NCBI GenBank assembly: GCA_964016885.1
Contig: OZ024746.1
Span: 60,202,001-60,266,000, forward strand
Direction of reading: 5' to 3'
Source: Eledone cirrhosa
Taxonomy: Eukaryota
DNA length: 64,000 nucleotides
The position numbers and the translations under genes are program-made. Positions 17,537 to 64,000 of this stretch are shown in pieces. The notes below the pieces were generated by a model. The model saw only the letters and a program-made list of their open reading frames with translations. It was not told the origin of the DNA and did not search any database. Numbering within the stretch: position 1 is the first letter of the stretch; each line of letters starts with the position of its first letter.

Positions 17537-17540
<4 letters not shown>

Positions 17541-17741
17541 AACCAGTAAGACCCCGACGGCTGAGCTCAAGCCGTTTCGACGGCTAATTCTGGACAGAAT
17601 TAGCCGTCCAGAATTAGCCGTCGAAACGGCTTGAGCTCAGCCGTCGGGGTCTTACTGGTTCCTATTACCCACTCTACTACCCCAAGTATTGAGTACTTTG
17701 GTGCGTTATGGTCCACCTGGTTCCTTACCACATTTCCTTCG

Positions 17742-19180: not shown

Positions 19181-19802
19181 GATATTAAACAAATGGAAAC
19201 TATATTTATAAAACCATATTTATTTCGTTATATATATTTCTGGGATATCATATTAAAAATATGGTATGCCTTCCTCAGACAAAATACAATACATAAGCTG
19301 TTTTATAAATAATTATTGACATACCTTATAATAATGCAACTTCCATTTAAAAAGTTGATTTGGTAGTGAAACTGTTATGACAGTTATATAGAAAGAAAAA
19401 CGAAGATGAGAAGAAGAAGATGAAGAGATGTATGTAAATAAAAAGAAAGAAGAAGATGAAGAGATGTATGTAAAGAAAAACAACAGAGCGAGATAGAGAG
19501 ACAAGGAGATATGGGAGAGAGAAATACATTGAGGAAGTGAAAAAATATAGTAGGCAGCTTTTGGACAGATGATCATCGTATATGTGAGATGTTAAGGAGG
19601 GAAGGTATACAGTTAAACTAGCCGACACATAAATCACGTCCAGTGTATAGGAGAAAAAGAAAGAAAGATGATATATTTAAAATATATTAAAAATATATTA
19701 TGTCTCATCCATTTGAATTATCAATTTTTATGAATTAGGTATTATAATGTAAATATCAGTATTCATGAATGAGACACATATCCATAATGTGTTGAAAATG
19801 AC

Positions 19803-23045: not shown

Positions 23046-25553
23046 AAAGTTTTATTTAAGATTGTTGGGTTACAACGAGTAAATATTTTATAACTGATAT
23101 AAAAGCACTCAACAGTTTCTGGAGTAGGTTTACGATATTAAACAAATGGAAACTATATTTATATTTATAAAACCATATTTATTTCGTTATATATATTTCT
23201 GGGATATCATATTAAAAATATGTTATGCCTTCCTCCGACAAAATACAATACATAAGCTGTTTTATAAATAATTAGTGACATACCTTGTGATAATGCAACT
23301 TCCTTTTAAAAAAGTTGATTTGGTAGTGAAACTGTTATGATAGTTATATAGAAAGAAGAAGATGAAGAGATGTATGCAAATAAAAAAAAGAAGAAGATGA
23401 AGAGATGTATGCAAAGAAAAACAACGGAGCGAGATAGAGAGACAAGGAGAGAGAGAAATACATTGATGGTGAAAAAACATAGTAGGCTGCTTTTTGACAG
23501 ATGATCATCGTATATGTGAGAGGTTAAGGGAAGGGATACAGTTAAATTAGTGTATAGGAGAAAAAGAAAGAAAGATGATATATTTAAAATATATTAAAAA
23601 TATATTATGTCTCATCCATTTGAATTATCAATTTTTATGAATTAGGTATTATAATATAAATATCAGTATTCATGAATGAGACACATATCCATAATGTGTG
23701 AAAAAAATGACCACATGCTCAGTTAAAAATTCTTAGGTCTATAAACAAAAACTGAGATAAAACTTCAAACATAAGTATATATGCATTCTCGTGAAAAAAG
23801 AGAAAAGAGAAGGTTATCTCAAATTCAAGTTGATAAATATAGACGCACATGTGAACCTACGTGATACGCTGCACTGATTCTTATATTTCATGAAAAACTT
23901 CAACTGATTTAAATTCTTTTAATTATGTTGGTTCCACCTCGACAGAATTTAAACTTCGCTATAATAATCACAAAAACTCTTTCACGGATCCAAATAAAAA
24001 ATCCTCAACATCGCTGTCAGGGTTACTCTGGCAACTTAAGCATGATAAAGTTGGATATTCGATGGTTTGGAATATAGTCTCAAAAGGGATTCCTTTTAAT
24101 TCCTCTTCTGAGACTTCTGACCTCTGCGCGGAGGAGATATTCTTTATATTAAAATCTAAAAATTCCCTTAATTTACGAACCAATTTATTCAGCTGTTGCA
24201 GACATAGATTGAACTCAACATTTAAATATAAATATAAATTTAAAATGTAATATAAAATGTAGTATATTTACTTAAGGTATTTGACTATTTGTGATACTTG
24301 GCGATAAATCTTTCGATTCCTTAAATTTTTTTAAAACCTTTCTGCATGAATATATAATTAATGAGATTAAATAAACTACCCTATAATTGGCGTTGTCCCC
24401 AATCTTTTGAATAAATTTTTAAGCTGGATAAACTTCTATAATAAATATAAGAGCATTTGTAGAATAAGTTTTGAATGATTTCTGCTAAATAAGGCTTGAT
24501 GAACAATTTTGGTTTTGTTTGCTTTTGACTCTGATTCTATGACCGATATGCGTGGCATACTATGTTCTCTTGCGTCCCTAGATACTCTGTGGAGTGACGA
24601 AGATATTCTTGGCGTTTTTAATTTTAATATTGATATCTGTTGTCTACTCTATGCTTGATCGATGATCATGCAAGTGAGGCTGGAATGTTATTTTAGATGT
24701 TAATGTATATCTTATATGTTTTGTGTCTATATATATGTATATATGTATGTAAATGTATGTAGGGTGGAATCTTTTCTAACGCATTGAAGTTTTTCATGAA
24801 ATATAAGAATCAGTGCAGCGTATCACGTAGGTTCACATGTGCGTCTATATTTATCAACTTGAATTTGAGATAACCTTCTCTTTTCTCTTTTTTCACGAGA
24901 ATGCATATATACTTATGTTTGAAGTTTTATCTCAGTTTTTGCTTATAGACCTAAGAATTTTTAACTGAGCATGTGGTCATTTTTTTCACACATTATGGAT
25001 ATGTGTCTCATTCATGAATACTGATATTTATATTATAATACCTAATTCATAAAAATTGATAATTCAAATGGATGAGACATAATATATTTTTAATATATTT
25101 TAAATATATCATCTTTCTTTCTTTTTCTCCTATACACTAATTTAACTGTATCCCTTCCCTTAACCTCTCACATATACGATGATCATCTGTCAAAAAGCAG
25201 CCTACTATGTTTTTTCACCATCAATGTATTTCTCTCTCTCCTTGTCTCTCTATCTCGCTCCGTTGTTTTTCTTTGCATACATCTCTTCATCTTCTTCTTT
25301 TTTTTATTTGCATACATCTCTTCATCTTCTTCTTTCTATATAACTATCATAACAGTTTCACTACCAAATCAATTTTTTTAAAAGGAAGTTGCATTATCAC
25401 AAGGTATGTCACTAATTATTTATAAAACAGCTTATGTATTGTATTTTGTTTGAGGAAGGCATAACATATTTTTAATATGATATCCCAGAAATATATATAA
25501 CGAAATAAATATGGTTTTATAAATATAAATATAGTTTCCATTTGTTTAATATC

Positions 25554-27452: not shown

Positions 27453-29250
27453 TCAAGGTGGTTGAGTTATCATAGGAATGTCAATCCAGTTACAGATCAG
27501 ATGTGATTTCAGATGAGGACAACATCTGAAGATCTCGGTCTTTGAGTTCAGGCAAGCAGAAGTGGCTTTCAAATTTTGCAAAATCCTATATTTTTCTGTG
27601 GTACACAAAGAACAATCTTTGTGCCCCTTTGGTACTCCCTCGAATGGTCTAAAATAGACCAATCGATAGAGTACGGATGTTTTTATCCTTGAATCCTCAC
27701 ACCTTACTTGCGAGGGCCGTTGTTGTTCGTTTATCGGAGTGCTTAAAAGAAGCGACATGTTCATAAAACCTGGTTTTAAACCTGTCCTGGGTCATGCCAA
27801 CATATCGCTCACTCCTGGCTGGCTGGTTGTTGATTAAAGGTGTCACTTTAGCCTCATAAACAACAGATTTGGTGTTACATTTGCCCTGCAATGGGCAATC
27901 ATCCGGATTCCTGCAACTGCATCCTGGATTTGTTCACGTATGATTTGAATTAGTGATCTTGGACTTCATTGATGGGCAACAGGAGTAACTGATCTTAACT
28001 ACATTTCTATTAAATATCTTATAATATCTATGATTGGGAGGAAAATGTTTATCTAAGAGTTCAAGGAATTTCCTTCCTACATTAGTTTTGACAGTTAGAG
28101 AGAAGGGGGTGTAAACCAAATAATTTTCCTTTTCCTATTATTGTGGTTAGTTTTATGGGTGGGGAGTAGGTAAATAATAAATTTGTTCTGTAAAACCGCT
28201 GTTTTTAAGGGCTTTATTATAATAAGGGGCGGCTTTATTAAAAATGTCTATAGACGAAGATAAGGTAGAAATCCTACGGCTAATGTTGGGAATAAGATTT
28301 TTAAAAACTATAGGGGGGATGGCAAGACTCTTTGTGTATATACCTAAGATTTTCATTAGGTTTATGATAAGGTTTAAAAGAGGCGGTAAGTAGATCAAGA
28401 TTAATGTCAAGAAAGTTAGCATTGGTAAGGTTCGTATCTATAGTAATTTTAAGGTTAAGATTAGCAAAAGTATTGATTAAATCTTAACGGAATTTTATCA
28501 AGGTTATGGCCGTTGGTGGTATGAGAAACTGCCAATCCGTCATCACGGTATAAACCGATATTATGGGAAGGAAATTTCTCTTTGAGGGTGTGGAGAAGGA
28601 ATAATCCTACTAAGTCACACACATCCGCACTGTCATATGAACCCATTGCAACATCAAAAGAGTTTTCAGGGTTTGACTTTTTAACCCAAATATTTTCATT
28701 AGTAAAGAGTAAAGTTTTTCTAGCATGAAAGATAAAGTTTTCTTCTAATTTAGAAATATTAATGAAGGGTCTTGCAAACTCTAAGGCATTAGTTAATAAG
28801 GAAACAGTAATAGAGGGGTAAAAATCAACAATATCAAATTGGGTAAATCTACACTTATTTTTACCTTGTATATTATTAAACCAAGAAATAACAGAAGAAG
28901 TATTTAGCCACTGTGATAGGTCTCTCTTAGTTCTAATTTGGAGAATTATTTTTCTTAAGATTTTTTTACTTGCAAGGCTAACTTCGGATTTAGCCGGGTT
29001 AATCAGTCTACAACTAGGTCGATTAGTAAAGTCTAATTTATGGTCTTTAAGGGTAATATATTCTTTACGCTTAGCTAGGCTTTCAATTCCGTTGTCTATT
29101 TTTAAAGAACTAGCTAGTTCTTTAGCTTCTTTATTAATAATATTGTAGGTATTATTATTAGTTAATTGATATTTGTTGGTGATACTATTAGTTAAAAGTT
29201 GGTTATGCAAAATACTATTAACTTCAAAGAGATTATATATTAATACAATA
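27453..29250 (-). pseudogene. PLE RT + GIY-YIG, multiply frameshifted
   Basis: CRLINPAKSE, QFDIVDFYPS, FDVAMGS, GLYRDD; CSCRNPDDCPLQGKC; VVY...YVGMT. Confidence 0.9.
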
Positions 29251-29431
29251 ATAATTATGTTCTTTCTCATATATATATATATATTGAGTTATATATGTAT
29301 ATGCGTGTGTGTGTGTATGTACGTATGCATACGTATGTGTATGTATATATGTGTGTGTAGGTATATATGTGTATGTGAGTATGTATGTATATATGTGTAT
29401 GTGAGTATGTATGTGTGTATGTATATATATG

Positions 29432-31109: not shown

Positions 31110-34100
31110 TGTATCTATCTATCTAAGGCGGGTAAAATTCCCGAGATCCATGGACGAGTTCTCTCCAGCGGTCTCTGTCCCTCATTATCGCTGCCATATC
31201 CTGAATCTCCAACAGACCAGTGTCTGTCCTTAGGGCATCAACATATGTTAACCTTGGTCTTCCTCTTCTAGTGTGTCCATGTAGGGACTCCCAAAGGAGC
31301 ACTGAGTGCAATGTCAACTCTGGATGTCGGTGAGCATGTCCAGCCAACCTCAGTCTCCTCTGTGTCACTTTTGAGCTGACTTTTGGGATGCTCCCATACA
31401 GCTCTGAGTTTTTCATCCTCAGTGTATACTGATTAATGTTCAGAGCCATCCTCAGCATTCTCGTGTAGCACCCATCCACCATCTGAGTGAGTCTCTTGGT
31501 CAGTGTCCAAGTCTCAGACCCATACAGCAGCACAGACTCCACTACAGCAATGAAGAGGCGGATTTTCAGGTCTCTACGAAGGTCCGACTTCCACACCGAT
31601 CTCAAGCTGTGACACGCCGCCCAGGCCTTGCTCTTCCTCTCAACCACATCATCTTCCGTATTCCCAATCTTTGCTCCCAAATACAGGAAGTCCTCAACCA
31701 ACTCCAGCGGCTTCCCGCCTACATTAGTGATCCCCTCTGGCTTCTCAACATTCTCTACCAGATATTTTGTTTTAGTCTCATTCATTCTCAGCCCCACACT
31801 CATCGACACAGTCTCAACCTCCCGCATCAAACTCTCTGCCTCCTTCACTGTATTTGTCACCAAAACTATGTCGTCGGCAAATTCAGCATCCGATACCTTT
31901 TTCGCCCCAACTCTCCTGCTCTGAGCCGGTGCTACAGTAAAGCCAGTGTCCTGGTGTTTCTCCAGTGCAAGGCGCATACAATAGTCCACTACGATGATAA
32001 AAAGGTAGGGAGCCAATGTATCTCCCTGGAGCACTCCAGCCAGTATCTCAAAGAACTCTGTCATCCCATCAGGTGTAATGACTTGGGCTTTGGTGTTGGT
32101 GTAGAGCAGTGATATCAGGTCCACTATCCTCTTGGGGATTCCATAAGCCTGTAAGATCTTCATCAGGCAGTAACGGTCCACAGAATCAAAGGCCTTCCTA
32201 AAGTCAATGAAAACCATGACCGCAGGAAGGCACTTTGCTCTAGCTCCCTCTAATATCCTCCTCAGCATCAGGATGTGACTGGTGGTTGATCTACCCTCTC
32301 TGAAGCCGTTCTGGTTGTCCCTGAGCTTCTTCTCCATCTCAGGCTGGATCCTGTTAAGAATCATCCTGTTGAGGGTCTTTGCCACAAGTGACGTCAGTGA
32401 GATCCCCCGGTAGTTGTTGGTGTTAGAGAGATCTCCCTTCTTTGGCACTGGGACGATGTTACTGATCCTCCACTGATTCGGGGCAACTCCTTTCTCCAGT
32501 GCCCCGTTACAGAACCCCAGGATGATATCATCAAAATCACACCTCTTCATCACCTCTGATGCCACTCCATCTTCTCCATGAGCCTTGCCCTCCTTGATCT
32601 TCTTCTTGGCTCTCTGAAGCTCCTCTCTGGTGAAGGGCTCTGTCTCAACATCCAGTTCCTCAAACAGCCGCCTGATCTCCCCAGTGCTCCGGGCTGTGGA
32701 GGGTGGCTCTCCTAGTAGGGTCCTAAAATGGTCTAGCCATTTCCTCTTCCTATCCTCGGGCCCCGTTCCCTGGATCTGACTCGAACACCTTTTCTTCCTC
32801 CCTGTGATGTCCTGGGTATGACATTAAACTACATCCAGTGGCAAGGCTCCAGTTCGGGAGTTCAGGAGATGTGGGGAATGTGGAGTTACCCCTTAGTTGT
32901 CATGACTCCCAGGTCTGCCCTGGCCCGGGGTGGTAGTACCTGTTAGGGCTCCATTTATGGGTTAAATAACTACCTTATTCAAGTGGCGCCGGTAAGGTAT
33001 TGTCAGCCATTGAAAAGAAATATGGAGAGTCGATCTAACAGCACTAGGGTTAGAGCCCCTAATTACACTGTCAAGGAGCAGCCTGGTCGTTATGACTCTG
33101 CTGGCTTAGAGCCACAGAGAGGGCCAGTGGATGATGGATCAGCTGTCTCTGAGACAAATATAAAGAATGCAGTTTTGTCCTGCAGAAGAGCCATCAAAAT
33201 GGGCACTTTGAATGTGAGGACTATTCGAACGCTGGAGAAGAGAGAGGAGTTGGGACATCTGTTCGAGGAGAGTGGTATACAGATACTTGCGATCCAAGAA
33301 CACAGGATTCTACACGATGAGCCCGTGAGGAGTGTGATGATCGGGAGGAAGAGCCAGCTCATCACTACATCGGCAGTGAAGAACACAACAAATGCTGCAG
33401 TAGGAGGTGTGGGTTTTGTGTTCAGTGCAAAAACCAATCTGTTGGTGAGGGAAATAATGCCTATCTCCCCGCGAGTGTTGAGGGTGACCTTCAATGGAAA
33501 CCCAAGACTGACAGTCATCTCAGCCTATAGTCCAACCGAGGGGGACAGTGATGTGAATGCCGAGGAGTTCCATGAGGAGGTGTGTAGAGCTGTCAACACC
33601 ACTCAGGCACACAATATCCTGCTTGTTTTGGGGGACTTCAATGCACATCTGAGTAAGGAGGGCAGTGAAGATCCTTGCTGGTACTTCCATAACAACACCA
33701 ACCGAAATGGAAGACTACTGAGAGACACCCTGCTGGAGGCGAACTTGATGGCGACCAACCTAAGGTTTAGGAAGAATCTGGGGAAGATGTGGACCTACAT
33801 CTCAGATATGCACCTGTCCAAGTCCCAGATTGATTTCATTCTGGTGAGGAAAAAGTGGCGGAATAGTGTTCTGAACACGGAACCATACAGCTATTTCAGT
33901 ACACTGGGTAGTGACCACCGGCTTGTTATGAGTGAGGTCCGCGTGAGCTTAAGAAAGAGCAAGGCTCAGCCCCGGAGAACAATCTATGACTGGGGAGCTT
34001 TCAAGGAAGATGATAAGCTACAGGAGAGGTTCACAGTGGAAGTGAGAAACAGGTTTAGTGCTCTGTGTGGAGAGTCAGAGGAGAGAGAGATTGGATGGTT

Positions 34101-34430
34101 GGATGGACTGAGGAGAGTGTGACGAGGAGGTACGGGCACTTCACCAATGCAGTGGCGAAAGCAAGTGAAACCCTGGTGCCGAGGAAAAAGAACAAAGGGA
34201 AGCACGTCAGCTCTGCAAACCCAAAAGTGTGTGCAGCCAGAGAACACCTGAAATCTGCCAGGGACCAATTCTATGCTGATCCTACGGAGGAGAGGATGGA
34301 GACTGTGGAGGTGATGAGGGAAGAGCTCTGTACCGCTTACACTGAGGTCAGAGAGGAGGCACTGATAGAGAAGATTAGAAGTGTGGAGAGAGCGGTTGAC
34401 AGATCTGGATGTAAGGAGAGCTGGATGATC
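31110..34430 (-). mobile_element. RTE-type LINE with inverted 5' half
   Basis: RT on minus 32810 to 31123 (DFRKAFD, LQGD, FADD) with (TAGA)n tail; 5' UTR and APE on plus 32811-34430 (TLNVRT, AIQEH, GDFNAH, SDH). Confidence 0.92.
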
Positions 34431-35074: not shown

Positions 35075-35128
35075 GTATTAAGGATACTATTTATGGTTAT
35101 GTATATACTAAAACCTTTTATAGTTATA

Positions 35129-36312
35129 CTAGCATTAAAGCCCGGCGTTGCTCGGGGTCATTAAGTTACCAAAGTTAGGTTGCACCACCCATTTTATGGC
35201 AGCACTTTTTTGTCTGCCAGGCACTGGGTGAATGAATTGCAGACCTGGAAGCAGGAGCTGCGCCAGCAGTGACAATTGTAGTTTCGCCTATGGATATTAT
35301 CTCTGTGCAAAAAAGTGTTGAAATTTATTTACTTGCGCAACACGCGCGTAGACGATGCCAGCCGAACAACAGAGCTGCGATGGAGTTGTTCTGCCTGGTT
35401 GTCTGTGTTTTCTAAATTTAAGACAGTAGGGAGGGTTGTGATATGAGGGAGAGTTAGCTGTTGTTTCTAGCAGGTTTAGTGACCTCATAGAGGATATGTG
35501 TTTTCTAAATTTAAGACAGTAGGGAGTGGTGTGATATGGAGGAGAGTTAGCTGCTGTTTCTAGCAGGTTTAGTGACCTCATAGAAGATATGTTTTCTAAA
35601 TTTAAGACAGTAGGGATGGGTGTGATATGGGGGAGAGTTAGCTGCTGTTTCTAGCAGGTTTAGTAACCTCATAGAGGATATGTGTTTTCTAAATTTAAGA
35701 CAGTAGGGAGTGGTGTGATATGGGGGAGAGTTAGCTGCTGTTTCTAGCAGGTTTAGTGACCTCATAGAGGATATTATTGTTTATCATTATCTATAAAAGG
35801 CAGATTGTTGTTGTTGTTGTTGAAGTGAGTGTGCGTTTGTATGCGTTTGGAAAAGAGGTTTTAAAAAAGATTTATCGCTTGTTGTTGAATAAATGTATCT
35901 GTTGCTTTTGAATAATTGTCGTTTCGTATGAAATGTAATAATTTGAAGTATAAAAGAGAAAGTAGCAAAATGTGTGGGTTGTAGATAGAGGTAAGCAGAT
36001 GATATGACAGAGTAATACGGACAGTATCACCATCAAGCTTGGAAAGAGAAAGTAGCAGAAAGTATGAAGTTGTATAGATTTTGAATGGTAGTGAAAAGAG
36101 TTTAGCAGTTTAAATGACAGAGAAAAATCGTAAAATATTGAGTTTTATCTATTTTTTGCGTAATTGTGGGTGAAATTGAAAAAATGAGATGTGCCAAGAC
36201 GCAATCGAAACTATTTCGAATACTGAATTGTAAATTTCAATTGAAGAAATTCTATATCGTAGATTACTATAAGAAAGGAGCATGACCACACACTGAGCTT
36301 TATAGATTATGA
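35129..36312 (-). mobile_element. non-autonomous Helitron
   Basis: Minus strand: A|TCATAATCTATAAAG start; end hairpin CCCGAGCAACGCCGGG, 8 nt, then CTAG|T. Confidence 0.7.
35404..35773. repeat. about 92-bp minisatellite x4 inside the Helitron
   Basis: Units at about 35404, 35497, 35590 and 35681. Confidence 0.9.
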
Positions 36313-36849
36313 TATATATTATACCCTAAATAGTGAAAGACAGTAATTTATTACTATCTTATTACCAGCTCAATGTAACAACATCAGTTGTTTTACAGAG
36401 CAGTTATATAGAGATTACATGAAACAAAGTTCTGTTTAAATCATTTATTTGCTTACAATTGTTTCTTCCAAACCGAGGTTTGGAGTCTTCGGAGCAATTA
36501 TTCAGTGATTTTTTACATACTTGACCTCCTTTTAAACACAAGAGACATATAGAAACATATGTATATATTGACCCACAGTGGGTTGACATCCATTATAATA
36601 ATATAGCATGGTAATTTACATACAAAGATTACAGTCATATTAAAGGACAAAATTAAAGTTTTAATTAAAATTAAAATTAAAATTAAACATTGGCAGTCTA
36701 CTAAGATAAAGCAAAAGGAAAGTTTGGAGTAGCCAGTGTATGCAACAGTCACACGTGTGGCACGCACGCGTGTCCTATTTATACAAGATTATAGTGCGGC
36801 AGATTGTTACAAGTAAAACAAGCAGTCAAAGCACACTAGTATTTTAATT

Positions 36850-36990
<141 letters not shown>

Positions 36991-41040: not shown

Positions 41041-41149
41041 ATATATATTTATATATATATATATGTATATATATATACATGTATATATATATGTATATAT
41101 ATATGTATATATATATATGTATATATATAGATATAGATAGGTAAATATA

Positions 41150-44100
41150 CACGGGTGTGTATGATTGTGTATAGAAGATTATATTAATAAGAGGAATTCC
41201 AACTTTGTCTGATTTACTCGTTTTATTTACAATCCTTTAAAATATATATAATGGTATTATAATGAAATAGTATGATAGAATATTAAATTCTAAGTGTTAA
41301 TTGAACAAGTACTTTCATGCTTTCGCAATCTTCAGGTTCATGATATGTGGTGACAGTCGAGTTTGCAATTTTCAACTGTAATGAGATGGGTAAATTTCCT
41401 ACCTTTTATACATTTTATACAGAGAAAAGTGGCTCCAGAATGCAAAGCCCTGTAAACTGTATTTCAACCAATCAGTGTGTAGTTTCACTGAATTACTACA
41501 GCTGATTGGTTTAAGCGTCACGGCTGGTTGAGCATGCTAACGACCAATAGTCATATCCAACGTATCAATTGTTTTGCTTTTTGAAATGATGAAAATAGCA
41601 TTTTCTATTAATCATCACCATCAACATCACTTTTATTATTATTATTATTGTTGTTGTTGTTGTTGTTGTTAGTGGTCGTGGTCATAGTGGTAGTAGAAGT
41701 AATACCCCTAGGCGTTATTATTGTTCATTTAGCTTGGGTTTGAATTTATCAATAAAATTCTTTTCTTTGATTTTTCTCTTGATTTCACTTGGGCTGTGTA
41801 ATTTGTAGAATGTGAATATTATAAATATTCCCTGACCACATGTTGCCAGGTGGCCGCTTAGGGGTATCTGACGGACATTTGGGTCTCTGATTTGTTGACG
41901 GTGTACCCGTGCACGTTCCGATAGTGCATTTCCAGTTTGACCGACATATAGTTCTTCACAATTCGGGCATTTAATGCAGTAAATTAGATTTCTGCTTTTG
42001 CAGTTCATATTTGCATTTGGGAATATTTTTCCAGTTTTTGTTTTCATATATTGACCGGCGTGTATGGATTGACATGTGCCGCATCGATTATCATTGCATT
42101 TAGATACAGTGAATGATTGGTCTTTGTTGTTAAGGTCAAACTTTGCTTTTGTTAGCAATTGCTTCAAATTTTTTGGCTGTCTTTTACTAAGAGTCAAAGA
42201 TCGATCTGTGATTAAGCCTTTTAATTCATTACTTTGAGCAATGATCGGTAGGTTTGCTTTGGCAGTGTTGAAGATATTCTGGTAACATGGGTTGTGTGTC
42301 ATTATAAATGGTATGACCAGTTCTTGGTTTCTTCTTCCTTGGGTTGTTCTAAGTTGTTGTATAGGTATTTTTATAGCCCGCTGTATGCCATTTTCTATAA
42401 GTAGAGATGGGTATTTTTGTTTGAGCAAAAATTCTCTTAGTTCTGTTAGGCGTTTGTACCTGGTATTCGTATCTTCTACAATGGTACAAATTCTTCTGGC
42501 TAGGCAGTATGGGATGTTGCGTTTTGTATGAGGTGGATGGCACGACTTAAAATTCAGATATTGATGGGTGTCTGTGTGTTTATAATATATATCCGTAGTA
42601 ATGGTGGTGTCGTTTTTGATTATCATTATATCTAGGAATGGTAATTTGGTCCTACTCATCTCTTTTGTGAATTGTAGAGATGGGTGTAGGTTATTCAGGA
42701 GGATATTGAACTCATCCAGAGTATCTAGAGATTCTGTCCAGATGATGAAACAGTCGTCAAGGTATCTCTTCCAAGATTTTTCAATGTACTTTCTAAAGTC
42801 AGTACTATATTTTTCCTCTATTTCTTGGTAGAGTTGTTGTTCTAAGTATCCCATTACAGAGTTCGCGTAAACGGGAGCAAACTTCGTTCCCATCGCTGTG
42901 CCTCTAATTTGGATGTAATTCTTTCCATTGAAGAAGAAAGTGTTGTTTTCCAGAATAAGTTTAACTGCGTCTAATATAAATGGCGCTGTGAATCTAATGG
43001 GAATCACTTCTCTATGTTTTTCCACCCAGTATTTAACCGCCTTTATTCCTAAATCATGTGTAATGTTGGTGTAAAGGCTTACCACATCAAAACTGAGTAG
43101 AAGTGAATTCGTTTCCGTGGTTTTGGGAAGATGGGACAGGAAGTCGATATCATCCCGGATGAAACTGGGTATGTGAATACATAGTGGTTTCAAAATAATG
43201 TCAACAAAATTGCTTAGACGGTGAGTGGGGCATGTTGGACCAGCTATAATAGGTCTAAGTTTTAAGTCTTTTAGGTGTAATAATTTAATGTACTCACTGT
43301 TTTGTTCTCTTACTGCCAGTTGTATTTCTTTTGACTTGTGAACTTTCGGTAGGCCATACAGGTTGCTGGGTTTCGACTCAAAATTGGTGATGTAGTCTCT
43401 TTCCTTATCAGTAAATGAGTTGTGGTATTTTGAAGCCAGGTTGTTGATCTTCTTCATGATGTTGTGGTCTATATTTGACGATATTTTATAATAGAATGTT
43501 GTGTCTTTCAGTTGTTCCTCAACCAAATCCTTGTAGTATTCAGTATCCATTATAACAACTGCACCCCCTTTATCTGCTTGTTTAATTATTATTGTTTTAT
43601 CATTTTGTATACGTTTAAGTGCAGACATTTATGATTTGTTAATGTTTGGCCTAACATTAGTATTATGTCTAAGAGGAAATTTAGACAGGATGTCAATGTA
43701 TTGGTCGAGATAGATATTTCTTCCTTTTGGCGGAGTGAAATTTGATTTATTCTTTACTAGTGATTCATCACTCTCATTATTTTTATCAGCGAAGAATTCT
43801 ACAAGACGTAATTTTCGACAGAATTCTTGGGTATCCTCCTTCAGTTCTTGGTGGTTGACTGTTGGAGTCGGTGTGAATTTCAGTCCTTTTGACAGAATTT
43901 GCATTTCATCATTGTCAAAATCTCTTTTAGATAAATTAATTATTTTAGGATCTACGTGTACAGCTGTTTTGGGTATGTTTCCTCCTGGAGTTTTTCTTTT
44001 TCCGGTTTTTGTTGTCCTGACGTTAAAAAATGAATTTTTCTCTGTTCAGGATTTATATTCCTGTTGGTGTTCGCTTGATGAACTTTTGGTCGTGATATTA

Positions 44101-44477
44101 TATTTGGTTTCGTTATGTATTTTGTCCTATTTTTGGTATTCTGTATATTATTTTTCTTCCTGTTAGCATTATTTTTAACAATCTGGGAAAATGACCTAGG
44201 TTTGCTTTCAGGTTTAGATCGTTTTTTCGTCCAGTTTCTTGTGGGCAATCTCTGTTGAGATCTTGAGAGTGATCTGGTTATTCTACGTTTTGTTTCCACA
44301 TTCCTTGTTGGTAGTCTCTGTTGAGATCTTGAGAATGATCTCCTGGTTTTACTACTTCTCATGGTCTGGTCAAATGAATACCTATCGTGTTTGTGCTTTT
44401 TGTTCATGTTGTGTGCGATAGGGTGTTTTTGTAGAAAAAGCGAAGAGTTATTACCGTAGTTCTTTGATTCAAGGTAA
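41150..44477 (-). mobile_element. near full-length Neptune-like PLE
   Basis: LSKGLKFTPT, KQADKGG, YGLPKVHK, FDVVSLY, GTAMG, RYLDD, CNDNRCGTC linker, NLIYCIKC..YVGQTG; in-frame TAA at 43629 and a frameshift near 43960; (TA)n flanks. Confidence 0.95.
41302..41340 (-). ncRNA. minimal type I hammerhead ribozyme
   Basis: TGAAC-CTGAAGA-T TGC GAAA GCA T-GAAAGTACTT^GTTCA. Confidence 0.8.
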
Positions 44478-51759: not shown

Positions 51760-51763
<4 letters not shown>

Positions 51764-53379
51764 TAACGGAGGAGGATGTGGTGTACGCCATTGATGAAAT
51801 TAGAACAGACTCGGCTGCTGGACCTGATGGATTCCCAGCAGTTCTCCTAAAAATATGTAAGCGGGCCTTAGCAACTCCACTGAAGATGCTCTTCAGAAGC
51901 TCCTTGGCTAGCGGTGTACTACCCAGGGAGCTGAAAGAAGGCACAATATGCCCTATCCATAAAGGAGGTAGTAGAGTGGAGGCCAAGAACTATAGGCCAG
52001 TCTCCCTGACGTCGCATATCAGTAAGGTCATGGAGCGAGTTGTCAGAAAGAAACTAATCACTTTCCTCGAAGAAAATGACCGCCTGACTAGCACGCAACA
52101 TGGCTTCCGCCCAGGAAGAAGCTGCCTTACACAGCTGCTACATCACTACGACTGGGTACTGAGACAACTACTAGACAGCTCACATGTAGACGTGATATAT
52201 CTTGACTTTGCGAAGGCCTTTGACAAGGTCGACCACGGAATGATATGTCACAAACTACACGGACTCGGCATAACTGGAAAAGTAGGTGAGTGGCTGCATG
52301 GCTTCCTAAGGGACAGAAGCCAGGCAGTCGCAGCAAATGGGGCCCTCTCGAGGGAAACACCGATAACAAGTGGGGTGCCTCAGGGGACAGTCCTGGGACC
52401 ACTACTGTTTTTGGTGGCTCTCTCGGACATGCCCTCTGTGGTGCATGCAACAACATCCCTCACTAGCTATGCTGATGACACTAAGGTAGCACAGGCAATC
52501 AAAAACCCGGCTGACGCTGCCCTCTTACAGCAGGATCTGGATGCCATATACAGATGGGCGGAAGAAAACAACATGCAGTTTAATGCTGGCAAATTCCAAG
52601 CCCTACAATACAAACCTGCAAACACAAATATAGCGGAACACAGCTACACAGGACCAGGAGGGACCGATATCCCCGTGTCAAAATCGATACGAGACCTGGG
52701 CATAGACATGAGCGATGATGCATCTTTTTCTTCACACATCATGAAGGTGGCGACAGCATGTAGACGATTCGCTGGCTGGATCTTGAGGACTTTCCTTACA
52801 AGAGATCGAGACACCATGTTGACACTGTGGAGGACTTTTGTCCTAAGCCACCTGGACTACTGCTCCCAGCTGTGGTCACCCCATAGTGTCAAACTAACCA
52901 CGGAGCTTGAGGCAATCCAGCGAAGCTACACCAAGAGGATTGCCAAGATGAGGGAGACAAGCTACTGGGAGAGGCTGAAGGAACTGAACCTCTACTCCTT
53001 GGAGCGAAGACGGGAGAGATACGCAGTGATCTACATGTGGAAAATCCTGGAGGGACTAGCACCAAACTTTGGCATTGGGAGCTGGACCAACCGTCGAACA
53101 GGACGTCACTGTGTGGTGCCAAAGGTCCCGTCTTCCACATCTAGAATAAGGAGCAGGTATTGCAATAGCCTGGGATTCAAGGGCCCTCAACTCTTCAACA
53201 GGCTGCCGAGGCATCTGCGAGACTTGCATGACGTGGAGGTGGATGTCTTTAAGAAACATCTCGACACCTTGTTATCCAGGATCCCGGATGAGCCCACAGC
53301 AAGACACGAGGGAAACCTAAGGGCAGCAGCAACAAACTCCCTCCTACACCAGTGGCCGACCTATACAGGCTGGAGATAA
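51760..53379 (+). mobile_element. 5'-truncated CR1/L2-group LINE, uninterrupted RT ORF (533 aa)
   Basis: [42 protein letters not shown]. Confidence 0.92.
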
Positions 53380-53639: not shown

Positions 53640-53945
53640 GATGAAGTTGAGAACTTGATTTACGCAATAACTTGCGGTGGGTGCAAACACAACTACATAG
53701 GACAGACGGGCACCTCATTACGCAAAAGAATGACCATCCACCGCCAACAAATCCGGGACGCTAACACAAGAAAAATCCCCTTGAGCAGCCATATTGCGAA
53801 CTGCGCAGGAATGACACTACCCAACTTTAAAATCTTCCCCTTCTACAAGTGCTCAGATTCGTTCACACAGCAACAAAGAATAAACAAAGAAAATCTATTC
53901 TTCAACAAATTTAAACCAAAACTAAACGGGTTATCACCCCAATAG
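53640..53945 (+). mobile_element. Neptune-like PLE GIY-YIG fragment
   Basis: NLIYAITCGGC..YIGQTG..HRQQIRD..IPLS, paralogous to 41718-42000. Confidence 0.85.
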
Positions 53946-54336: not shown

Positions 54337-54422
<86 letters not shown>

Positions 54423-54431
54423 GTATATATG

Positions 54432-54464
<33 letters not shown>

Positions 54465-54617
54465 GTATATATGTATATATATATATATGTATATATGTAT
54501 ATATGTATATATATATGTATATATGTATATATATGTATATATGTATATATATGTATATATATGTATATATGTATATGTATGTATATATGTATATGTATGT
54601 ATATATGTATATGTATG

Positions 54618-54666
<49 letters not shown>

Positions 54667-54689
54667 GTATATATGTATATATATATATG

Positions 54690-54758
<69 letters not shown>

Positions 54759-54801
54759 GTATATATATATATGTATATATATATATGTATATATATATAT
54801 G

Positions 54802-54846
<45 letters not shown>

Positions 54847-55139
54847 GTATATATATGTATATATATATGTATATATATGTATATATATATGTATATATAT
54901 ATGTATATATATGTATATATATATGTATATATATGTATATGTATATATGTATATATATATATATGTATATATGTATATATATGTATATATATATATATGT
55001 ATATATATATATGTATATATGTATATATATGTATATATATATATGTATATATATGTATATATATATATATGTATATATGTATATGTATATATGTATATAT
55101 ATGTATATGTATATATGTATATATATATATATGTATATG

Positions 55140-55170
<31 letters not shown>

Positions 55171-55195
55171 GTATATATATATATGTATGTATATG

Positions 55196-55228
<33 letters not shown>

Positions 55229-55293
55229 GTATATATATATATGTATATATATGTATATATATATATATGTATATATGTATATATGTATATATG

Positions 55294-55324
<31 letters not shown>

Positions 55325-55405
55325 GTATATATATATGTATATATATATATATATGTATATATGTATATATGTATATATATATATATATGTATATATGTAT
55401 ATATG

Positions 55406-55452
<47 letters not shown>

Positions 55453-55519
55453 GTATATGTATATATGTATATATATGTATATATATATATATGTATATAT
55501 GTATATATGTATATATATG

Positions 55520-55566
<47 letters not shown>

Positions 55567-55621
55567 GTATATGTATATATGTATATATATGTATATGTAT
55601 ATGTATATATATTTATATATG

Positions 55622-55670
<49 letters not shown>

Positions 55671-55707
55671 ATATATGTATGTATATATATGTATATGTAT
55701 ATATATG

Positions 55708-56399
55708 TATAGCGATTAGGTCTTCAAAATGTTTATTATAAACATACAGAATATTTTCGAATATTCTATGTCTATATTCACATATATATCGCTATTTCAG
55801 AGCATTTATTCCAATTTCTAATTTCTGCCGGACCGGCAACCGCTCTTTCAAACCAGTTCCTGTACACAGCTAAGTATTCTATAAGTCTCTAGCTGTGTCA
55901 TTCTCGATAAAAGCACTGGATATGTAGTCCTGATGATTTCTAACAAGAATGAAACGCGTAGATTACTTCCCTTGCTTTTATCGAGAATCTAATTGTAATA
56001 CGTGACGTATTCTATTCTATAGCGATTAGGTCTTCAAAATGTTTATTATAAACATACAGAATATTTTCGAATATTCTATGTCTATATTCACATATATATC
56101 GCTATTTCAGAGCATTTATTCCAATTTCTAATTTCTGCCGGACCGGCAACCGCTCTTTCAAACCAGTTCCTGTACACAGCTAAGTATTCTATAAGTCTCT
56201 AGCTGTGTCATTCTCGATAAAAGCACTGGATATGTAGTCCTGATGATTTCTAACAAGAATGAAACGCGTAGATTACTTCCCTTGCTTTTATCGAGAATCT
56301 AATTGTAATACGTGACGTATTCTATTCTATAGCGATTAGGTCTTCAAAATGTTTATTATAAACATACAGAATATTTTCGAATATTCTATGTCTATATTC
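55708..56399 (+). mobile_element. retrozyme-like tandem array, 310-bp unit x2.2
   Basis: Units at 55708, 56018 and 56328, apparently identical; HHR in each complete unit; long (TA)n flanks. Confidence 0.85.
55924..55966 (+). ncRNA. minimal type I hammerhead (repeated at 56234-56276)
   Basis: GTAGTC-CTGATGA-T TTCT AACA AGAA T-GAAACGCGTA^GATTAC. Confidence 0.85.
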
Positions 56400-58994
<2,595 letters not shown>

Positions 58995-60174
58995 CATCGT
59001 TCCTGTGTCAGTGTTGAACAAAAAGGTGACGTGGTTGCCTTAACACCGTATGGCATAAATTCAGGCTGTTCAGTTTGTTTACAAACGAACAAAGCGACGT
59101 TAGCGCCGCTAAACTGATACGTGCATATATGTATGTGTACCTGTATGCATATGTATATATATATGTATATATATATATATATGTGCATGCTACTGTACGT
59201 CTGTATACATATATGTATGTACGTATACATGCATACTTACATTTAAGTAAGTGCCATACTAAGAGTGAGAAATGAAATTTCGTTTTCATTTTGTTTCAAT
59301 TTATCGTTTTCGGTATGCCTGACCGATTTAACTCACTCAATATGCAAATTAGGCTGCTCAGCCGTTAATTTTCATAAGGAAAGTATATACTTTCGAACGT
59401 TCAACTATCTGGCAGATGGGTAAACGGTGCTGATGATAGCTAACAAGCTTGAAACTAGTACATCGTTCCTGTGTCAGTGTTGAACAAAAAGGTGACGTGG
59501 TTGCCTTAACACCGTATGGCATAAATTCAGGCTGTTCAGTTTGTTTACAAACGAACAAAGCGACGTTAGCGCCGCTAAACTGATACGTGCATATATGTAT
59601 GTGTACCTGTATGCATATGTATATATATATGTATATATATATATATATGTGCATGCTACTGTACGTCTGTATACATATATGTATGTACGTATACATGCAT
59701 ACTTACATTTAAGTAAGTGCCATACTAAGAGTGAGAAATGAAATTTCGTTTTCATTTTGTTTCAATTTATCGTTTTCGGTATGCCTGACCGATTTAACTC
59801 ACTCAATATGCAAATTAGGCTGCTCAGCCGTTAATTTTCATAAGGAAAGTATATACTTTCGAACGTTCAACTATCTGGCAGATGGGTAAACGGTGCTGAT
59901 GATAGCTAACAAGCTTGAAACTAGTACATCGTTCCTGTGTCAGTGTTGAACAAAAAGGTGACGTGGTTGCCTTAACACCGTATGGCATAAATTCAGGCTG
60001 TTCAGTTTGTTTACAAACGAACAAAGCGACGTTAGCGCCGCTAAACTGATACGTGCATATATGTATGTGTACCTGTATGCATATGTATATATATATGTAT
60101 ATATATATATATATGTGCATGCTACTGTACGTCTGTATACATATATGTATGTACGTATACATGCATACTTACAT
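58995..60174 (+). mobile_element. retrozyme-like tandem array, 466-bp unit x2.5
   Basis: Units at 58995, 59461 and 59927; the HHR spans the unit junction. Confidence 0.85.
59423..59467 (+). ncRNA. minimal type I hammerhead (repeated at 59889-59933)
   Basis: AACGGTG-CTGATGA-T AGCT AACA AGCT T-GAAACTAGTA^CATCGTT. Confidence 0.88.
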
Positions 60175-60177
60175 ATG

Positions 60178-60287
<110 letters not shown>

Positions 60288-60325
60288 CATATGTATATAT
60301 ATGTATATATATATATATACATATG

Positions 60326-60363
<38 letters not shown>

Positions 60364-60393
60364 CATATGTATATATATATATATATACATATG

Positions 60394-60449
<56 letters not shown>

Positions 60450-60455
60450 CATATG

Positions 60456-60511
<56 letters not shown>

Positions 60512-60552
60512 CATATGTATATATATATATATACATATGTATATATATATAC

Positions 60553-60603
<51 letters not shown>

Positions 60604-60609
60604 CATATG

Positions 60610-60738
<129 letters not shown>

Positions 60739-60740
60739 GG

Positions 60741-60807
<67 letters not shown>

Positions 60808-60810
60808 TGG

Positions 60811-61011
<201 letters not shown>

Positions 61012-61041
61012 CATATGTATATATATATATATATACATATG

Positions 61042-61079
<38 letters not shown>

Positions 61080-61109
61080 CATATGTGTATATATATATAT
61101 ATACATATG

Positions 61110-61201
<92 letters not shown>

Positions 61202-61659
61202 TATGTATGTATATATATATATATACATATGTATATATATATATATATATACATATGTATATATATATATATATACATATGTATATATATATATATATAC
61301 ATATGTATATATATATATATATACATATGTGTATATATATATATATACATATGTATATATATATATATATACATATACGTATGTATATATATATACATAT
61401 GTATATATATATATATATACATATACGTATGTATATATATATATATATGTATGTATATATATATATATATACATATGTGTATATATATATATATATACAT
61501 ATGTGTATATATATATATATATACATATGTGTGTATATATATATATATATACATATGTGTATATATATATATATATATACGTGTGTGTATATATATATAT
61601 ATATACGTGTGTATATATATATATATATGTATGTATATATATATATATACGTATGTATA

Positions 61660-64000
61660 TAACTTTGAATAACTTTGAAATGTTTTGGCCAGTATTGGCC
61701 CAGGCCATGTCTAACTTAATAGCACCACCTGGCGAAGTCTTTCAATTCAGGATTTGGGCACCATGGCCCATTCGAGAAGAGAATTACTGTTTGCGGAGAC
61801 ATATCCGGGTGTGGGTGGTTTGTCCGGGATTACTTGGAGGAATTTGTCCAAAGACTTCTTGAATTTTGTGTGGTCAGTTTCTGTTTTGACGTGTCCTGGT
61901 GTGATGTTGAAGAGAGCAGGGCCGATTGAGGTGAAATAATTGTGCCGTATTGTTGTTATGAGTTGCGATTTAGATTTTTGAATGGGACGGTTAGCACGGG
62001 GCCCAAGCCTTGGGTGTATCTTGAAGGCGATGCCAACATCATTTGGGCAGTGATGATGGAACATTTTCCACATCATGCAGATAATATAACGCTCACGGCG
62101 ACGTTGGAGTGAGTAAAGTTTCAGGTTTTCCAATCGACCCCAGTAGTCAAGGTCTGACATGCCATCTATCTTTTTCGTGATTGCCCTTTGAGGAGCTTCA
62201 AGTTTCATGATACTTTGTTTCGTGTGGGGAGACCACAGTGGACAACAGTATTCAAGGTGTGGTCGGGCGAAAGTAGAGAAGAGAAGGATAATGGTGCGGG
62301 AATCTCTCGACTGGAAGGTTCTGAGGATCCAGGAACACATTCTGCGGGCCATGTCAACTTTGCTGCTTATATGCGTGGTCCAGCTTATGTTGCTGTCCAC
62401 GGTTACTCCCAAGTCTCTGATGTTGTTAGATGCCACGAGAGTTTCCCCGGAGGGAAGGGAGTACGGGAGTTTCAGAGCATCCTCTTTTCCAAAGTGGATC
62501 AGTTCGAATTTGTCTTCGTTCAGTAACATGTTGTTCTTTTCTGCCCATTGGGTAACAGCCAGTAGGTCTGACTGAAGGCTTATCCGGTCATCCACGCCAT
62601 TGATGACCTTTTGGAGCTTGGAATCATCAGCGAAAATTTTAATGTTGCTGTGTTTGATGATGTCAGTGATGTCATTAATATAGATGATGAAGAGAAGTGG
62701 GCCCAACACAGTGCCTTGTGGGACTCCACTACTGACTTTGGCTGGGCTTGATTTGACTCCCTCAACTACAACATGTTGGGTTCTGTTTGACAGGAAGCTC
62801 TTGATCCACTGCAGCAGCTTTCCAGTGACACCAATATTGGACAGCTTTCTCAGTAGAATGTTATGATCAACCCTGTCAAAGGCCTTGCTGAAATCAAGGT
62901 AGATAACATCAGTGTTGGAACCCTCTCCCAAGGCTCTCAAAATGTCATCAAAGTGATGCAGTAGTTGCGTCAGGCAATCCCTTCCATTACGGAATCCATG
63001 CTGGTTGGAGTTCAGCATATTGTTACTCTCAAGGAAGTGGGTCATTCGCGATCTCACCACTCGCTCAAATACCTTAATGATATGAGAGGTGAGTGAGATT
63101 GGACGGTAATTCACGGCAAGGGATTTGTTTCCCTTTTTGAAAACTGGGACAACAGACTGGGATAGAAGGTTTTCTGGCACATATCCAGCATCCAGTGAGT
63201 TCCGCCACAGATTGGCAAGAGGAGAAGCAAGTTGGTGTTGACACGCCTTCAAGACACAAGCAGGGAACCTATCGGGACCTACTGCTGAATTATGCTTGAT
63301 TTCCTTTATTGCCGCCAAGACATCAGGGGCGCCAAACGTTATGTCCGATAAGGTGTAATGGGGAGTAACATCGCCGATACAGCCCAGATCGGCCATATCA
63401 GGATTGCTGAAAACAGAGCAGTATTGTTTCTGCAGTATCTCACCCATGGTTTTAGCATTGTCTTGAAGAGTGCCATTTTCATCAATTAGAGGGCCAACAG
63501 TAGAGCCAGTGATTTTGTGTTTTTTTGCAAATGAAAAGAACACTTTGGGATTGAGTTTGATCTTCTCAATGGCCCAGGCCTCTTCAGCTCTTCTCTGATT
63601 GTTGATGAGGGACATTATGTTGTTTTGGAGGTTATGTTTTTAATCTCTAGTGATGAAATGGCAGTCAAGTTGATGTGTTGCTGCTGACAGTATTTCAGCT
63701 TGTTGATTTTTTTGTTCGTTCTCTTAATTTTTCTGATGAGTGTTTTTCTATTTCTAGGGATTCTGCTCTTAGATTTGTTTATAGTTCTTAATGGGGTGTG
63801 TTTAGCACATATGTTTGTAACAGTGTCCACAAATGTCTGCCAGGACTTTTTGATGTTAGTGGGTGTATGAGTGTGCGTGAAGGACCAGTCGACATGTGCA
63901 AGATCATGACTGATCGCTTCCCAGTTTGCATTGTGGAAATCCATAGCGTCAAACGGATGGACAGGAGAAATGACATTGGGTTTGTATATTGGACGGTGGA
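61660..64000 (-). mobile_element. CR1/L2-group LINE running off the window
   Basis: ORF 61747-63615 with YLDFSKAFD, GVPQG, FADD; frameshift near 63620; short 3' UTR ending (TTCAAAGTTA)2 at (TA)n. Confidence 0.92.

What the first reader, a model, noticed from the sequence alone, without database searches (positions are those of the whole stretch)
55708..56399. 310-nt retrozyme-like array
Seen: 2.2 apparently identical non-coding units, each complete unit with a minimal type I HHR and palindromic stem III (ACGCGT), between long TA tracts; the array ends are permuted relative to the cleavage site. Established: this matches non-LTR retrozymes, which give circular RNAs and are thought to be mobilised by PLEs. 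Inference: rolling reverse transcription of a circle; likely a young, uncatalogued family.
Basis: partly seen in the sequence, partly recalled or inferred. Interest (0 to 1): 0.82.

Follow-up and report, generated by a model that had tools for sequence, protein, structure and literature searches.

The report
Young hammerhead retrozyme in TA microsatellite
A 310-base repeat carrying a self-cutting 'hammerhead' RNA motif is a new, recently inserted family of a known kind of animal jumping RNA (a retrozyme), and its ends, a second such repeat nearby and a neighbouring Penelope-type transposon point to how it is copied into the genome.

Summary
Real. 55708-56399 is 2.23 perfectly identical 310-nt non-coding units in a 7-kb (TA)n tract, with two type I hammerheads that would release one 310-nt monomer. 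The ribozyme has canonical metazoan geometry (6-bp helix I, 4-bp helix II, palindromic helix III), not the published 'minimal' form. A second, unrelated 466-nt array 2.6 kb away has the same motif: all 14 differences are compensatory (7 of 13 pairs), and that array starts exactly at its predicted cleavage site. A TA-flanked Neptune-type Penelope element in the window has a hammerhead of the same build. In one public run the unit is very abundant and varied, with (TA)n junctions suggesting one fixed 3' end and variable 5' ends. Verdict: new family of animal non-LTR retrozyme, probably inserted by a Penelope-like RT/endonuclease. Cleavage, expression and circles are not shown; a linear multimer template explains the array as well as a circle. 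The unit is held near-identically under 17 coded organism labels, most likely by carry-over; real cross-species spread is not excluded. The scan noted similar TA-targeted tandem elements and retrozymes on other DNA (unchecked notes).

The parts
55708..56399 (+). Array A: 2.23 identical head-to-tail 310-nt non-coding units
55961..56270 (+). Predicted cleavage-to-cleavage monomer, 310 nt (candidate circular RNA)
   Evidence: hammerhead positions; circular fold -67.8 kcal/mol, z -4.17, 60% paired
55900..55988 (+). Hammerhead 1 with extended helix I: distal 16-bp helix, 3-bp helix, internal loop 1, 6-bp helix I (55924-55929 with 55961-55966), core 55930-55960, U.U + 4-bp helix II with AACA loop, ACGCGU helix III; predicted cut after 55960 (GUA)
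   Evidence: sequence
56210..56298 (+). Hammerhead 2, identical; predicted cut after 56270
56092..56099 (+). Internal ATATATAT run (unit 132-139), the longest alternating run of the unit; the array's 3' end and the best-supported (TA)n loose end of run X3 fall here
55708..55711 (+). 5' junction: TATA shared by the flank and unit positions 58-61
54350..55707 (.). Left (TA/TG)n tract, inferred insertion target
56400..58992 (.). (TA/TG)n tract between arrays A and B
58993..60174 (+). Array B: 2.54 identical 466-nt units of an unrelated family; hammerhead cores 59430-59460 and 59896-59926; first non-TA base 58995 is the first base after the predicted cut
41140..44476 (-). Near-full-length Penelope-like element of Neptune/Nematis type (DKG, C-x4-C-x2-C linker, C-terminal GIY-YIG), (TA)n on both sides, hammerhead of the same build at 41335-41307; candidate for the kind of partner, this copy carries a premature stop

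Best explanation
Array A is one recent insertion of a non-autonomous, hammerhead-bearing retroelement (animal non-LTR retrozyme). Steps: (1) tandem units are transcribed on the + strand [inferred]; (2) two hammerheads pair their palindromic helix III and cut after GUA, releasing a 310-nt monomer that a host ligase can close [motif shown; cutting and ligation inferred from PMC7229834]; (3) a Penelope-like RT/GIY-YIG protein, probably Neptune-type, nicks (TA)n DNA and starts reverse transcription at a fixed internal site about 130-140 nt downstream of the cut [fixed end seen in sequence data; enzyme inferred]; (4) the RT copies more than two unit lengths from a circle or an uncut multimer, and the far end is joined at any short TA match, giving variable 5' ends [inferred]. 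I put the family assignment at about 0.93, PLE mobilisation at about 0.8, an active ribozyme at about 0.7, and a circular rather than linear template at about 0.55.
For: Perfect tandem identity and chance controls. Hammerheads of arrays A and B share nothing else (only a 29-nt 83% match apart from AT-run and short chance matches) yet all 13 helix pairs hold in both and 7 change on both sides; 4 of 500 shuffles reach this, slid registers pair 27-50%. Loop 2 AACA fits RNnA and a U follows helix I, the tertiary contact of PMC2632901. The active fold costs only 1.5 kcal/mol in the circle. ACGCGU self-duplex -7.5 kcal/mol. Array B begins exactly at its predicted cut, 1 of 58 TA-preceded positions. 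Run X3: 574 contigs, 233 of them under 99% alike; (TA)n loose ends behind unit 139 (10 contigs) and before unit 30 and 101 (1 contig each), against 129-139 and 58-61 in the window. TA-flanked PLE with U.U, tetraloop and 6-nt palindrome in its own hammerhead; (TA)n bias is described for Neptune and Naiad PLEs (PMC8557442); PLE RT starts internally, downstream of its hammerhead, on AT-rich nicks (PMC11167929).
Against: No cleavage, transcript or circle is shown. The U.U at the base of helix II weakens the motif (axolotl HHR_Amex2: 22% cleavage in 1 h as monomer); only 1 of 9 predicted retrozyme dimers cleaved in vitro in the 2026 preprint. About a quarter of X3's depth at 55945 reads G for the 3' A of loop 2, the tertiary-contact base. 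Rfam gives only 19.2 bits against a 52-bit threshold. Units A and B show no homology to the ends of the four local PLE segments tested. B's 3' end (unit 248) is not at its longest TA run (160-188), so priming by homology is not general. The B start argument is post hoc, one of two arrays, and the cut triplet itself ends in TA. Only 8 of 30 loose-end rows were shown, and a loose end of (AT)n behind an internal AT run could partly be repeat expansion. That X3 is the window's species is inferred. No TSD can be read inside the microsatellite. The - strand folds as well as the + strand (z -5.22).
Confidence: 0.75

Rival explanations
1. Same family, but no circle is involved: the PLE protein copies an uncut linear multimer transcript from a homogeneous donor array, and the hammerhead only trims 5' ends.
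For: Hammerhead mutants did not change insertion by the purified anole PLE and unprocessed RNA was the dominant substrate (PMC11167929). Array B's start at the cut site fits a linear template with a cleaved 5' end. Weak helices II and III would leave many junctions uncut.
Against: Units within each array are 100% identical although the family in X3 carries variants, as a single circle would give; circles were found for all three animal retrozymes tested in PMC7229834; the long extended helix I closes the monomer ends.
Confidence: 0.35
2. The unit is the orphaned pseudo-LTR of an autonomous PLE; the array is a 5'-truncated tandem insertion of that element's end, not an independent parasite.
For: PLEs insert as partial tandems and carry hammerheads in pLTRs; 24 of 57 Xenopus retrozyme families matched known TEs, 21 of those 22 TEs being PLEs. 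The local PLE has a hammerhead of the same build.
Against: No coding sequence joins the unit in the window; no homology to local PLE ends; none of the 8 loose-end rows shown leads from the full unit into a long unique sequence other than (TA)n (22 rows not shown); perfect 310 periodicity leaves no ORF remnant.
Confidence: 0.1
3. A locally duplicated minisatellite or an assembly artefact with a chance or dead hammerhead.
For: It sits in a long microsatellite where assemblies slip; identical units could be a collapsed or duplicated read; activity untested.
Against: Two other runs give the same unit as a perfect head-to-tail contig (X1, X4); chance rate 0.007 per window; compensatory changes between A and B; other (TA)n junction positions in X3.
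Confidence: 0.03
4. The 310-nt circle also exists outside this genome, as a transmissible RNA or a horizontally moved element shared by many species.
For: 20 of 24 listed runs hold 0.75-1.00 of the 28 sampled words, under 17 coded organism labels in 16 studies (16 labels without the possible source X1). X1 and X4 give a lone, flankless 340-nt circular contig with 0 differences. PMC7229834 calls retrozyme sequences species-specific.
Against: Depths of 128 and 10 against 2-6 x 10^5 summed in X3 (the tool warns that this is no copy number), with no variants and no flanks, are what low-level carry-over of one organism's most abundant repeat into other libraries would give; labels may be close relatives; run types are unknown; 3 of 20 holders were laid.
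Confidence: 0.07

Closest known systems
Metazoan non-LTR retrozymes (PMC7229834): Mytilus 350-390-bp and axolotl Rtz_353/HHR_Amex2 families
   Same: Non-coding tandem unit of 310 nt, GC under 50%, one type I hammerhead per unit, self-paired predicted circle, PLEs in the same genome; U.U at the base of helix II as in HHR_Amex2.
   Different: Different sequence; helix III is a 6-nt palindrome (dimer-type) in an invertebrate; short dispersed array inside (TA)n with an apparently fixed 3' end, which the passages read do not describe; expression and cleavage untested.
Vertebrate non-LTR retrozymes as PLE derivatives (bioRxiv 10.64898/2026.07.22.740005)
   Same: Meets its definition of an 'active' array (two consecutive units with complete hammerheads); co-occurs with PLEs.
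   Different: No sequence homology to the local pLTRs; the link here is hammerhead build, target and end pattern. No molluscs among that study's sampled groups as described in the text.
Neptune-type Penelope-like elements (PMC8557442; mechanism PMC11167929 for a Poseidon element)
   Same: (TA)n surroundings, hammerhead upstream of the 3' end, permuted partial-tandem insertion, internal start of reverse transcription.
   Different: No RT or endonuclease; no inverted 5' copy; no 30-40-nt tail discernible.
Minimal PLE hammerheads, min-HHR (PMC4209133)
   Same: Conserved core, palindromic 15.2-16.2 region, predicted to work as dimers.
   Different: Helix I 6 bp and extended rather than 4-5 bp; helix II 4 bp rather than 7-8; U.U rather than G10.1-C11.1; loop-loop contact residues present.

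Membership tests
Metazoan non-LTR retrozyme | Head-to-tail repeat of about 150-450 bp | tested here: met
   310 nt, 2.23 units
Metazoan non-LTR retrozyme | Type I hammerhead in each unit; at least two consecutive complete motifs | tested here: met
   local fold -31.4 kcal/mol
Metazoan non-LTR retrozyme | GC under 50%, no protein, no LTR-internal region | tested here: met
   GC 34%; longest ATG ORF 30 aa; no tRNA gene in window; units abut with no spacer. PBS and PPT were not searched for separately.
Metazoan non-LTR retrozyme | Stable, highly self-paired predicted circle that leaves the hammerhead accessible | tested here: met
   z -4.17 against 100 shuffles; 60% paired, active fold costs 1.5 kcal/mol; the - strand folds equally well
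Metazoan non-LTR retrozyme | Multiple genomic copies | tested here: met
   Run X3: 574 contigs, variants, three other (TA)n junction positions; host identity of X3 inferred; no genome held
Metazoan non-LTR retrozyme | TSD longer than 4 bp when present | tested here: inconclusive
   Best match 5 nt inside a microsatellite
Metazoan non-LTR retrozyme | Co-existence with hammerhead-bearing PLEs | tested here: met
   RT + GIY-YIG ORF at 41721-43628 with hammerhead at 41335; second core at 15718
Metazoan non-LTR retrozyme | Species-specific unit sequence | tested here: inconclusive
   Held under 17 coded organism labels; carry-over likely but not shown
Metazoan non-LTR retrozyme | Self-cleavage; accumulation as linear and circular RNA | not testable with these tools
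   No run known to be RNA could be laid; circular contigs arise from tandem DNA as well. Indirect only: array B starts at its cut site.
min-HHR of PLEs (PMC4209133) | Helix II 7-8 bp, helix I 4-5 bp with poorly defined loop 1 | tested here: not met
   Helix II 4 bp, helix I 6 bp plus extension
min-HHR of PLEs (PMC4209133) | G10.1-C11.1 pair | tested here: not met
   U.U
min-HHR of PLEs (PMC4209133) | Palindromic 15.2-16.2 and loop 3 | tested here: met
   ACGCGT; shared with canonical metazoan motifs
Rfam hammerhead families (clan CL00010) | Score at or above gathering threshold | tested here: not met
   0 matches in window; HH9 19.2 bits against 52, E 0.026, model 1-77/77
pLTR of a local PLE | Sequence homology to an autonomous element's end | tested here: not met
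   blastn of A and B against four PLE segments: only AT-run and 17-nt matches; rest of genome not available
Catalogued Dfam/Repbase family | Match to a library consensus | not testable with these tools

The most novel reading that the evidence does not exclude
The 310-nt hammerhead circle is a currently active element that both integrates into (TA)n through a Neptune-type protein and moves between animal species as RNA or by very recent horizontal transfer, so that near-identical copies occur in many unrelated hosts: a retrozyme caught at the border to a viroid-like agent.
Probability: 0.07. Interest if true: 0.85.

Novelty: new member of a known kind. Interest (0 to 1): 0.42.

Why it matters
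Which enzyme moves animal retrozymes, where it starts copying and whether the template is a circle are open questions (PMC7229834, PMC7761336, PMC11167929). Two young, perfectly identical arrays with readable junctions, one starting at the cut site, beside a TA-flanked PLE with the same hammerhead build, give a concrete RNA-protein-target set on which to test them. As a family it is ordinary; as a test case it is a good one.

Tried and rejected
No whole genome held, so no direct copy survey. Rfam at gathering score: 0 in the window; miRNA hits at E-value level lie on the TA tracts and were rejected. Pattern of the shared A/B hammerhead: 0 in viral contigs, 0 in genome contigs, 1 in metagenome contigs (L001), rejected as chance because helix II does not pair and no helix I forms. 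No RNA holder listed in the run search; this says nothing on expression. X23 and X24 (another sample of organism H) hold next to none of the words and X21 (raw Hi-C reads of another sample of organism K, 1938 million letters read) laid 0 reads; the tools state that these are no proof of absence and no test, so I do not count them. The repeat finder on the whole window was swamped by microsatellite. No host gene identified: 4 candidate ORFs without Pfam match, Atlas hits under 0.9. Bacterial promoter scan at chance level and not applicable. No look-alike sequence of A or B in earlier scan notes, none for this genome. Priming by annealing to an internal AU run was considered as the general rule and dropped, since B does not follow it. 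ViennaRNA's zero probability for monomeric helix III is partly built in (2-nt loops are disallowed). PMC11888127 and PMC10886601 passages added nothing.

Full report
1. Observation. The array is as described. A shift of 310 gives 382 consecutive identical positions (55708-56089 against 56018-56399); other shifts from 300 to 319 give at most 29. It is 692 nt, 2.23 units, 34% GC, with no ATG ORF over 30 aa on either strand of the circularised unit. It lies in a (TA/TG)n tract running 54350-61661. Hammerhead cores stand at 55930-55960 and 56240-56270 on +. The core pattern has 5 matches in the window and 0.00 in 100 shuffles; a full descriptor finds 5 sites in the window and 0.007 per simulated window over 300 simulations. 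Counting from the predicted cut (after GUA at 55960), the array starts at unit position 58-61 and ends at 129-139, so it holds one complete monomer, 55961-56270.

2. The ribozyme. Helix I has 6 pairs, then an internal loop, 3 pairs and a 16-bp distal helix; helix II is a U.U opposition plus 4 pairs and an AACA loop; helix III is the palindrome ACGCGU. PMC4209133 (parts 1-2 of 4 read) defines canonical metazoan motifs as helix I 6 bp, helix II 4 bp, helix III 1-2 bp with a palindromic loop, and minimal ones as helix II 7-8 bp, helix I 4-5 bp, G10.1-C11.1. This motif is canonical in build. Loop 2 fits RNnA and a U follows helix I, the loop-loop contact of PMC2632901 (passages). Rfam HH9 covers it end to end but at 19.2 bits against 52. 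As a hairpin, one pair with a 4-nt loop costs +6.0 kcal/mol, while the palindrome pairs with itself at -7.5, so dimeric cleavage is expected. In the predicted circle helix I forms with probability 0.85-1.0, helix II 0.13-0.16, and forcing the active fold costs 1.5 kcal/mol. The circle folds better than shuffles on both strands (z -4.17 and -5.22), so folding does not pick the strand; the hammerhead does. GUA is listed among natural cut triplets in the abstract start of PMC1636495 (search listing only). Against activity: U.U weakens the axolotl HHR_Amex2 (22% in one hour as monomer, better as dimer; PMC7229834, outline and parts 2-4 of 6 read), and 1 of 9 predicted dimers cleaved in bioRxiv 10.64898/2026.07.22.740005 (parts 1-3 of 5 read).

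3. A second array. At 58993-60174 lie 2.54 identical 466-nt units, unrelated to A except for the hammerhead (29 nt, 83%). Over the 43-nt motif the two differ at 14 positions, all in 7 pairs changed on both sides; all 13 pairs hold in both; 4 of 500 shuffles reach this and slid registers pair 27-50%. With two sequences and a structure that I drew from them this is not a probability, but no unpaired core or loop base differs. Array B's first non-TA base, 58995, is the first base after its predicted cut. If a junction needs a preceding TA, that is 1 of 58 positions; post hoc and one of two arrays, about 3%. It suggests a template whose 5' end was made by the ribozyme. B's 3' end (unit 248) is in the loop of a small predicted hairpin, not at its long TA runs.

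4. Beyond the window. No genome is held. The run search with one unit (28 words) lists 24 runs; 20 hold 0.75-1.00 of the words, under 17 coded organism labels in 16 studies; X1 is marked as a possible source. I laid 3 of the 20 holders and one raw run on one unit. X3 gives 574 contigs (341 at 99% or more, 142 at 95-99, 79 at 90-95, 12 below), summed depth 2-6 x 10^5 (no copy number, as the tool warns), two listed variants (A55945G, C56082T), and among the 8 of 30 loose-end rows shown, (TA)n behind 56099 (10 contigs) and before 55990 and 56061 (one each). These are unit positions 139, 30 and 101; the window's ends are 129-139 and 58-61. All three 5' junctions fall on a short TA match, and the 3' junction on the unit's longest AT run. 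X1 and X4 give one 340-nt head-to-tail contig each, 0 differences, no flank, depth 128 and 10. A circular contig does not show a circular RNA; tandem DNA gives the same. I read the many labels as carry-over of one organism's very abundant repeat (inference), with close relatives and true spread as alternatives.

5. The partner. A Penelope-like element at about 44476-41140 (-) has RT and C-terminal GIY-YIG, DKG and a C-x4-C-x2-C linker, which PMC8557442 (passages) gives for Neptune and Nematis and links, as a hypothesis, to (TA)n bias. It has (TA)n on both sides, one premature stop and a frame change near its 5' end. Its hammerhead has the same U.U, tetraloop and 6-nt palindrome and lies about 165 nt upstream of its 3' end. 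Its best listed relatives are at most 65% identical; the named animal hits among the 120 listed are bivalves. The host is thus probably a marine invertebrate; a cephalopod look of the repeats is my recall, from no call. A and B have no homology to the ends of this or three other PLE segments. PMC11167929 (parts 1-2 of 4) shows a purified PLE protein nicking AT-rich DNA and starting reverse transcription inside the RNA, some 85-92 nt past the hammerhead cut, without homology to the target and without need of cleavage.

6. Mechanism. Shown: arrays, motifs, covariation, junctions, co-occurring PLE. Inferred: transcription, dimeric cleavage, ligation, PLE-driven insertion from a fixed internal start, copying over two unit lengths, 5' joining at TA. 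A circle (0.55) and an uncut multimer cannot be told apart from these data.

7. Novelty. The kind is published (PMC7229834; review PMC7761336, passages). I found no paper on this family or on retrozymes targeting microsatellites in the listings; these search a partial library, the supplement of PMC7229834 could not be read, and Dfam and Repbase were not available. Earlier scan notes describe similar TA-targeted tandem elements and retrozymes on other DNA (unchecked). Verdict: new member of a known kind, interest 0.42; the cross-species reading has probability about 0.07.

Noticed in passing
window 58993-60174 (+): Second retrozyme-like array, 466-nt unit with a long (AU)n hairpin, circle z -8.78; starts at its cut site.
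   Followed up: yes
window 41140-44476 (-): Near-full-length Neptune-type PLE between (TA)n tracts, hammerhead at 41335-41307, one premature stop and a frame change that may be the natural ORF1 frameshift.
   Followed up: partly
window 15599-17415 (-): C/A-rich segment between (TA)n tracts with a hammerhead core at 15718-15688 about 90 nt from its end; probably the 3' part of another PLE; helix I is weak.
   Followed up: partly
window 19788-21432 (+), 23903-24247 (+), 27513-29288 (-): Broken PLE-like ORFs related to each other (31-44% identity; one 98% partial duplicate); Hydra-clade look is recalled, no Pfam match.
   Followed up: partly
window 53652-53927 (+): GIY-YIG remnant, 50% identical to the Neptune-type ORF end, 430 nt before the (TA)n tract that holds the arrays.
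   Followed up: partly
window 35080-36850: Segment between (TA)n tracts with a 93-bp unit repeated four times (35404-35774) and short terminal inverted motifs; Helentron-like by recall.
   Followed up: no
window 17540-17665: Perfect inverted repeat of about 55 nt directly after a (TA)n tract.
   Followed up: no
window 55945 (run X3): A read as G in about a quarter of depth, at the 3' A of loop 2; allele or RNA editing cannot be told.
   Followed up: no
window 55914-55956 (run X1): A 168-nt contig at depth 2.6 matches only the hammerhead stretch with 5 differences: perhaps a third related family.
   Followed up: no
window 55960 to 56006 (run X3): One low-depth joint (2.65) leaves exactly at the predicted cut site.
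   Followed up: no
window 9476-12414 (+), 31123-34122, 51763-53379 (+), 61747-63998 (-): Four LINE-type RT ORFs (Pfam RVT_1), one with a PHD finger, several abutting (TA)n tracts.
   Followed up: no
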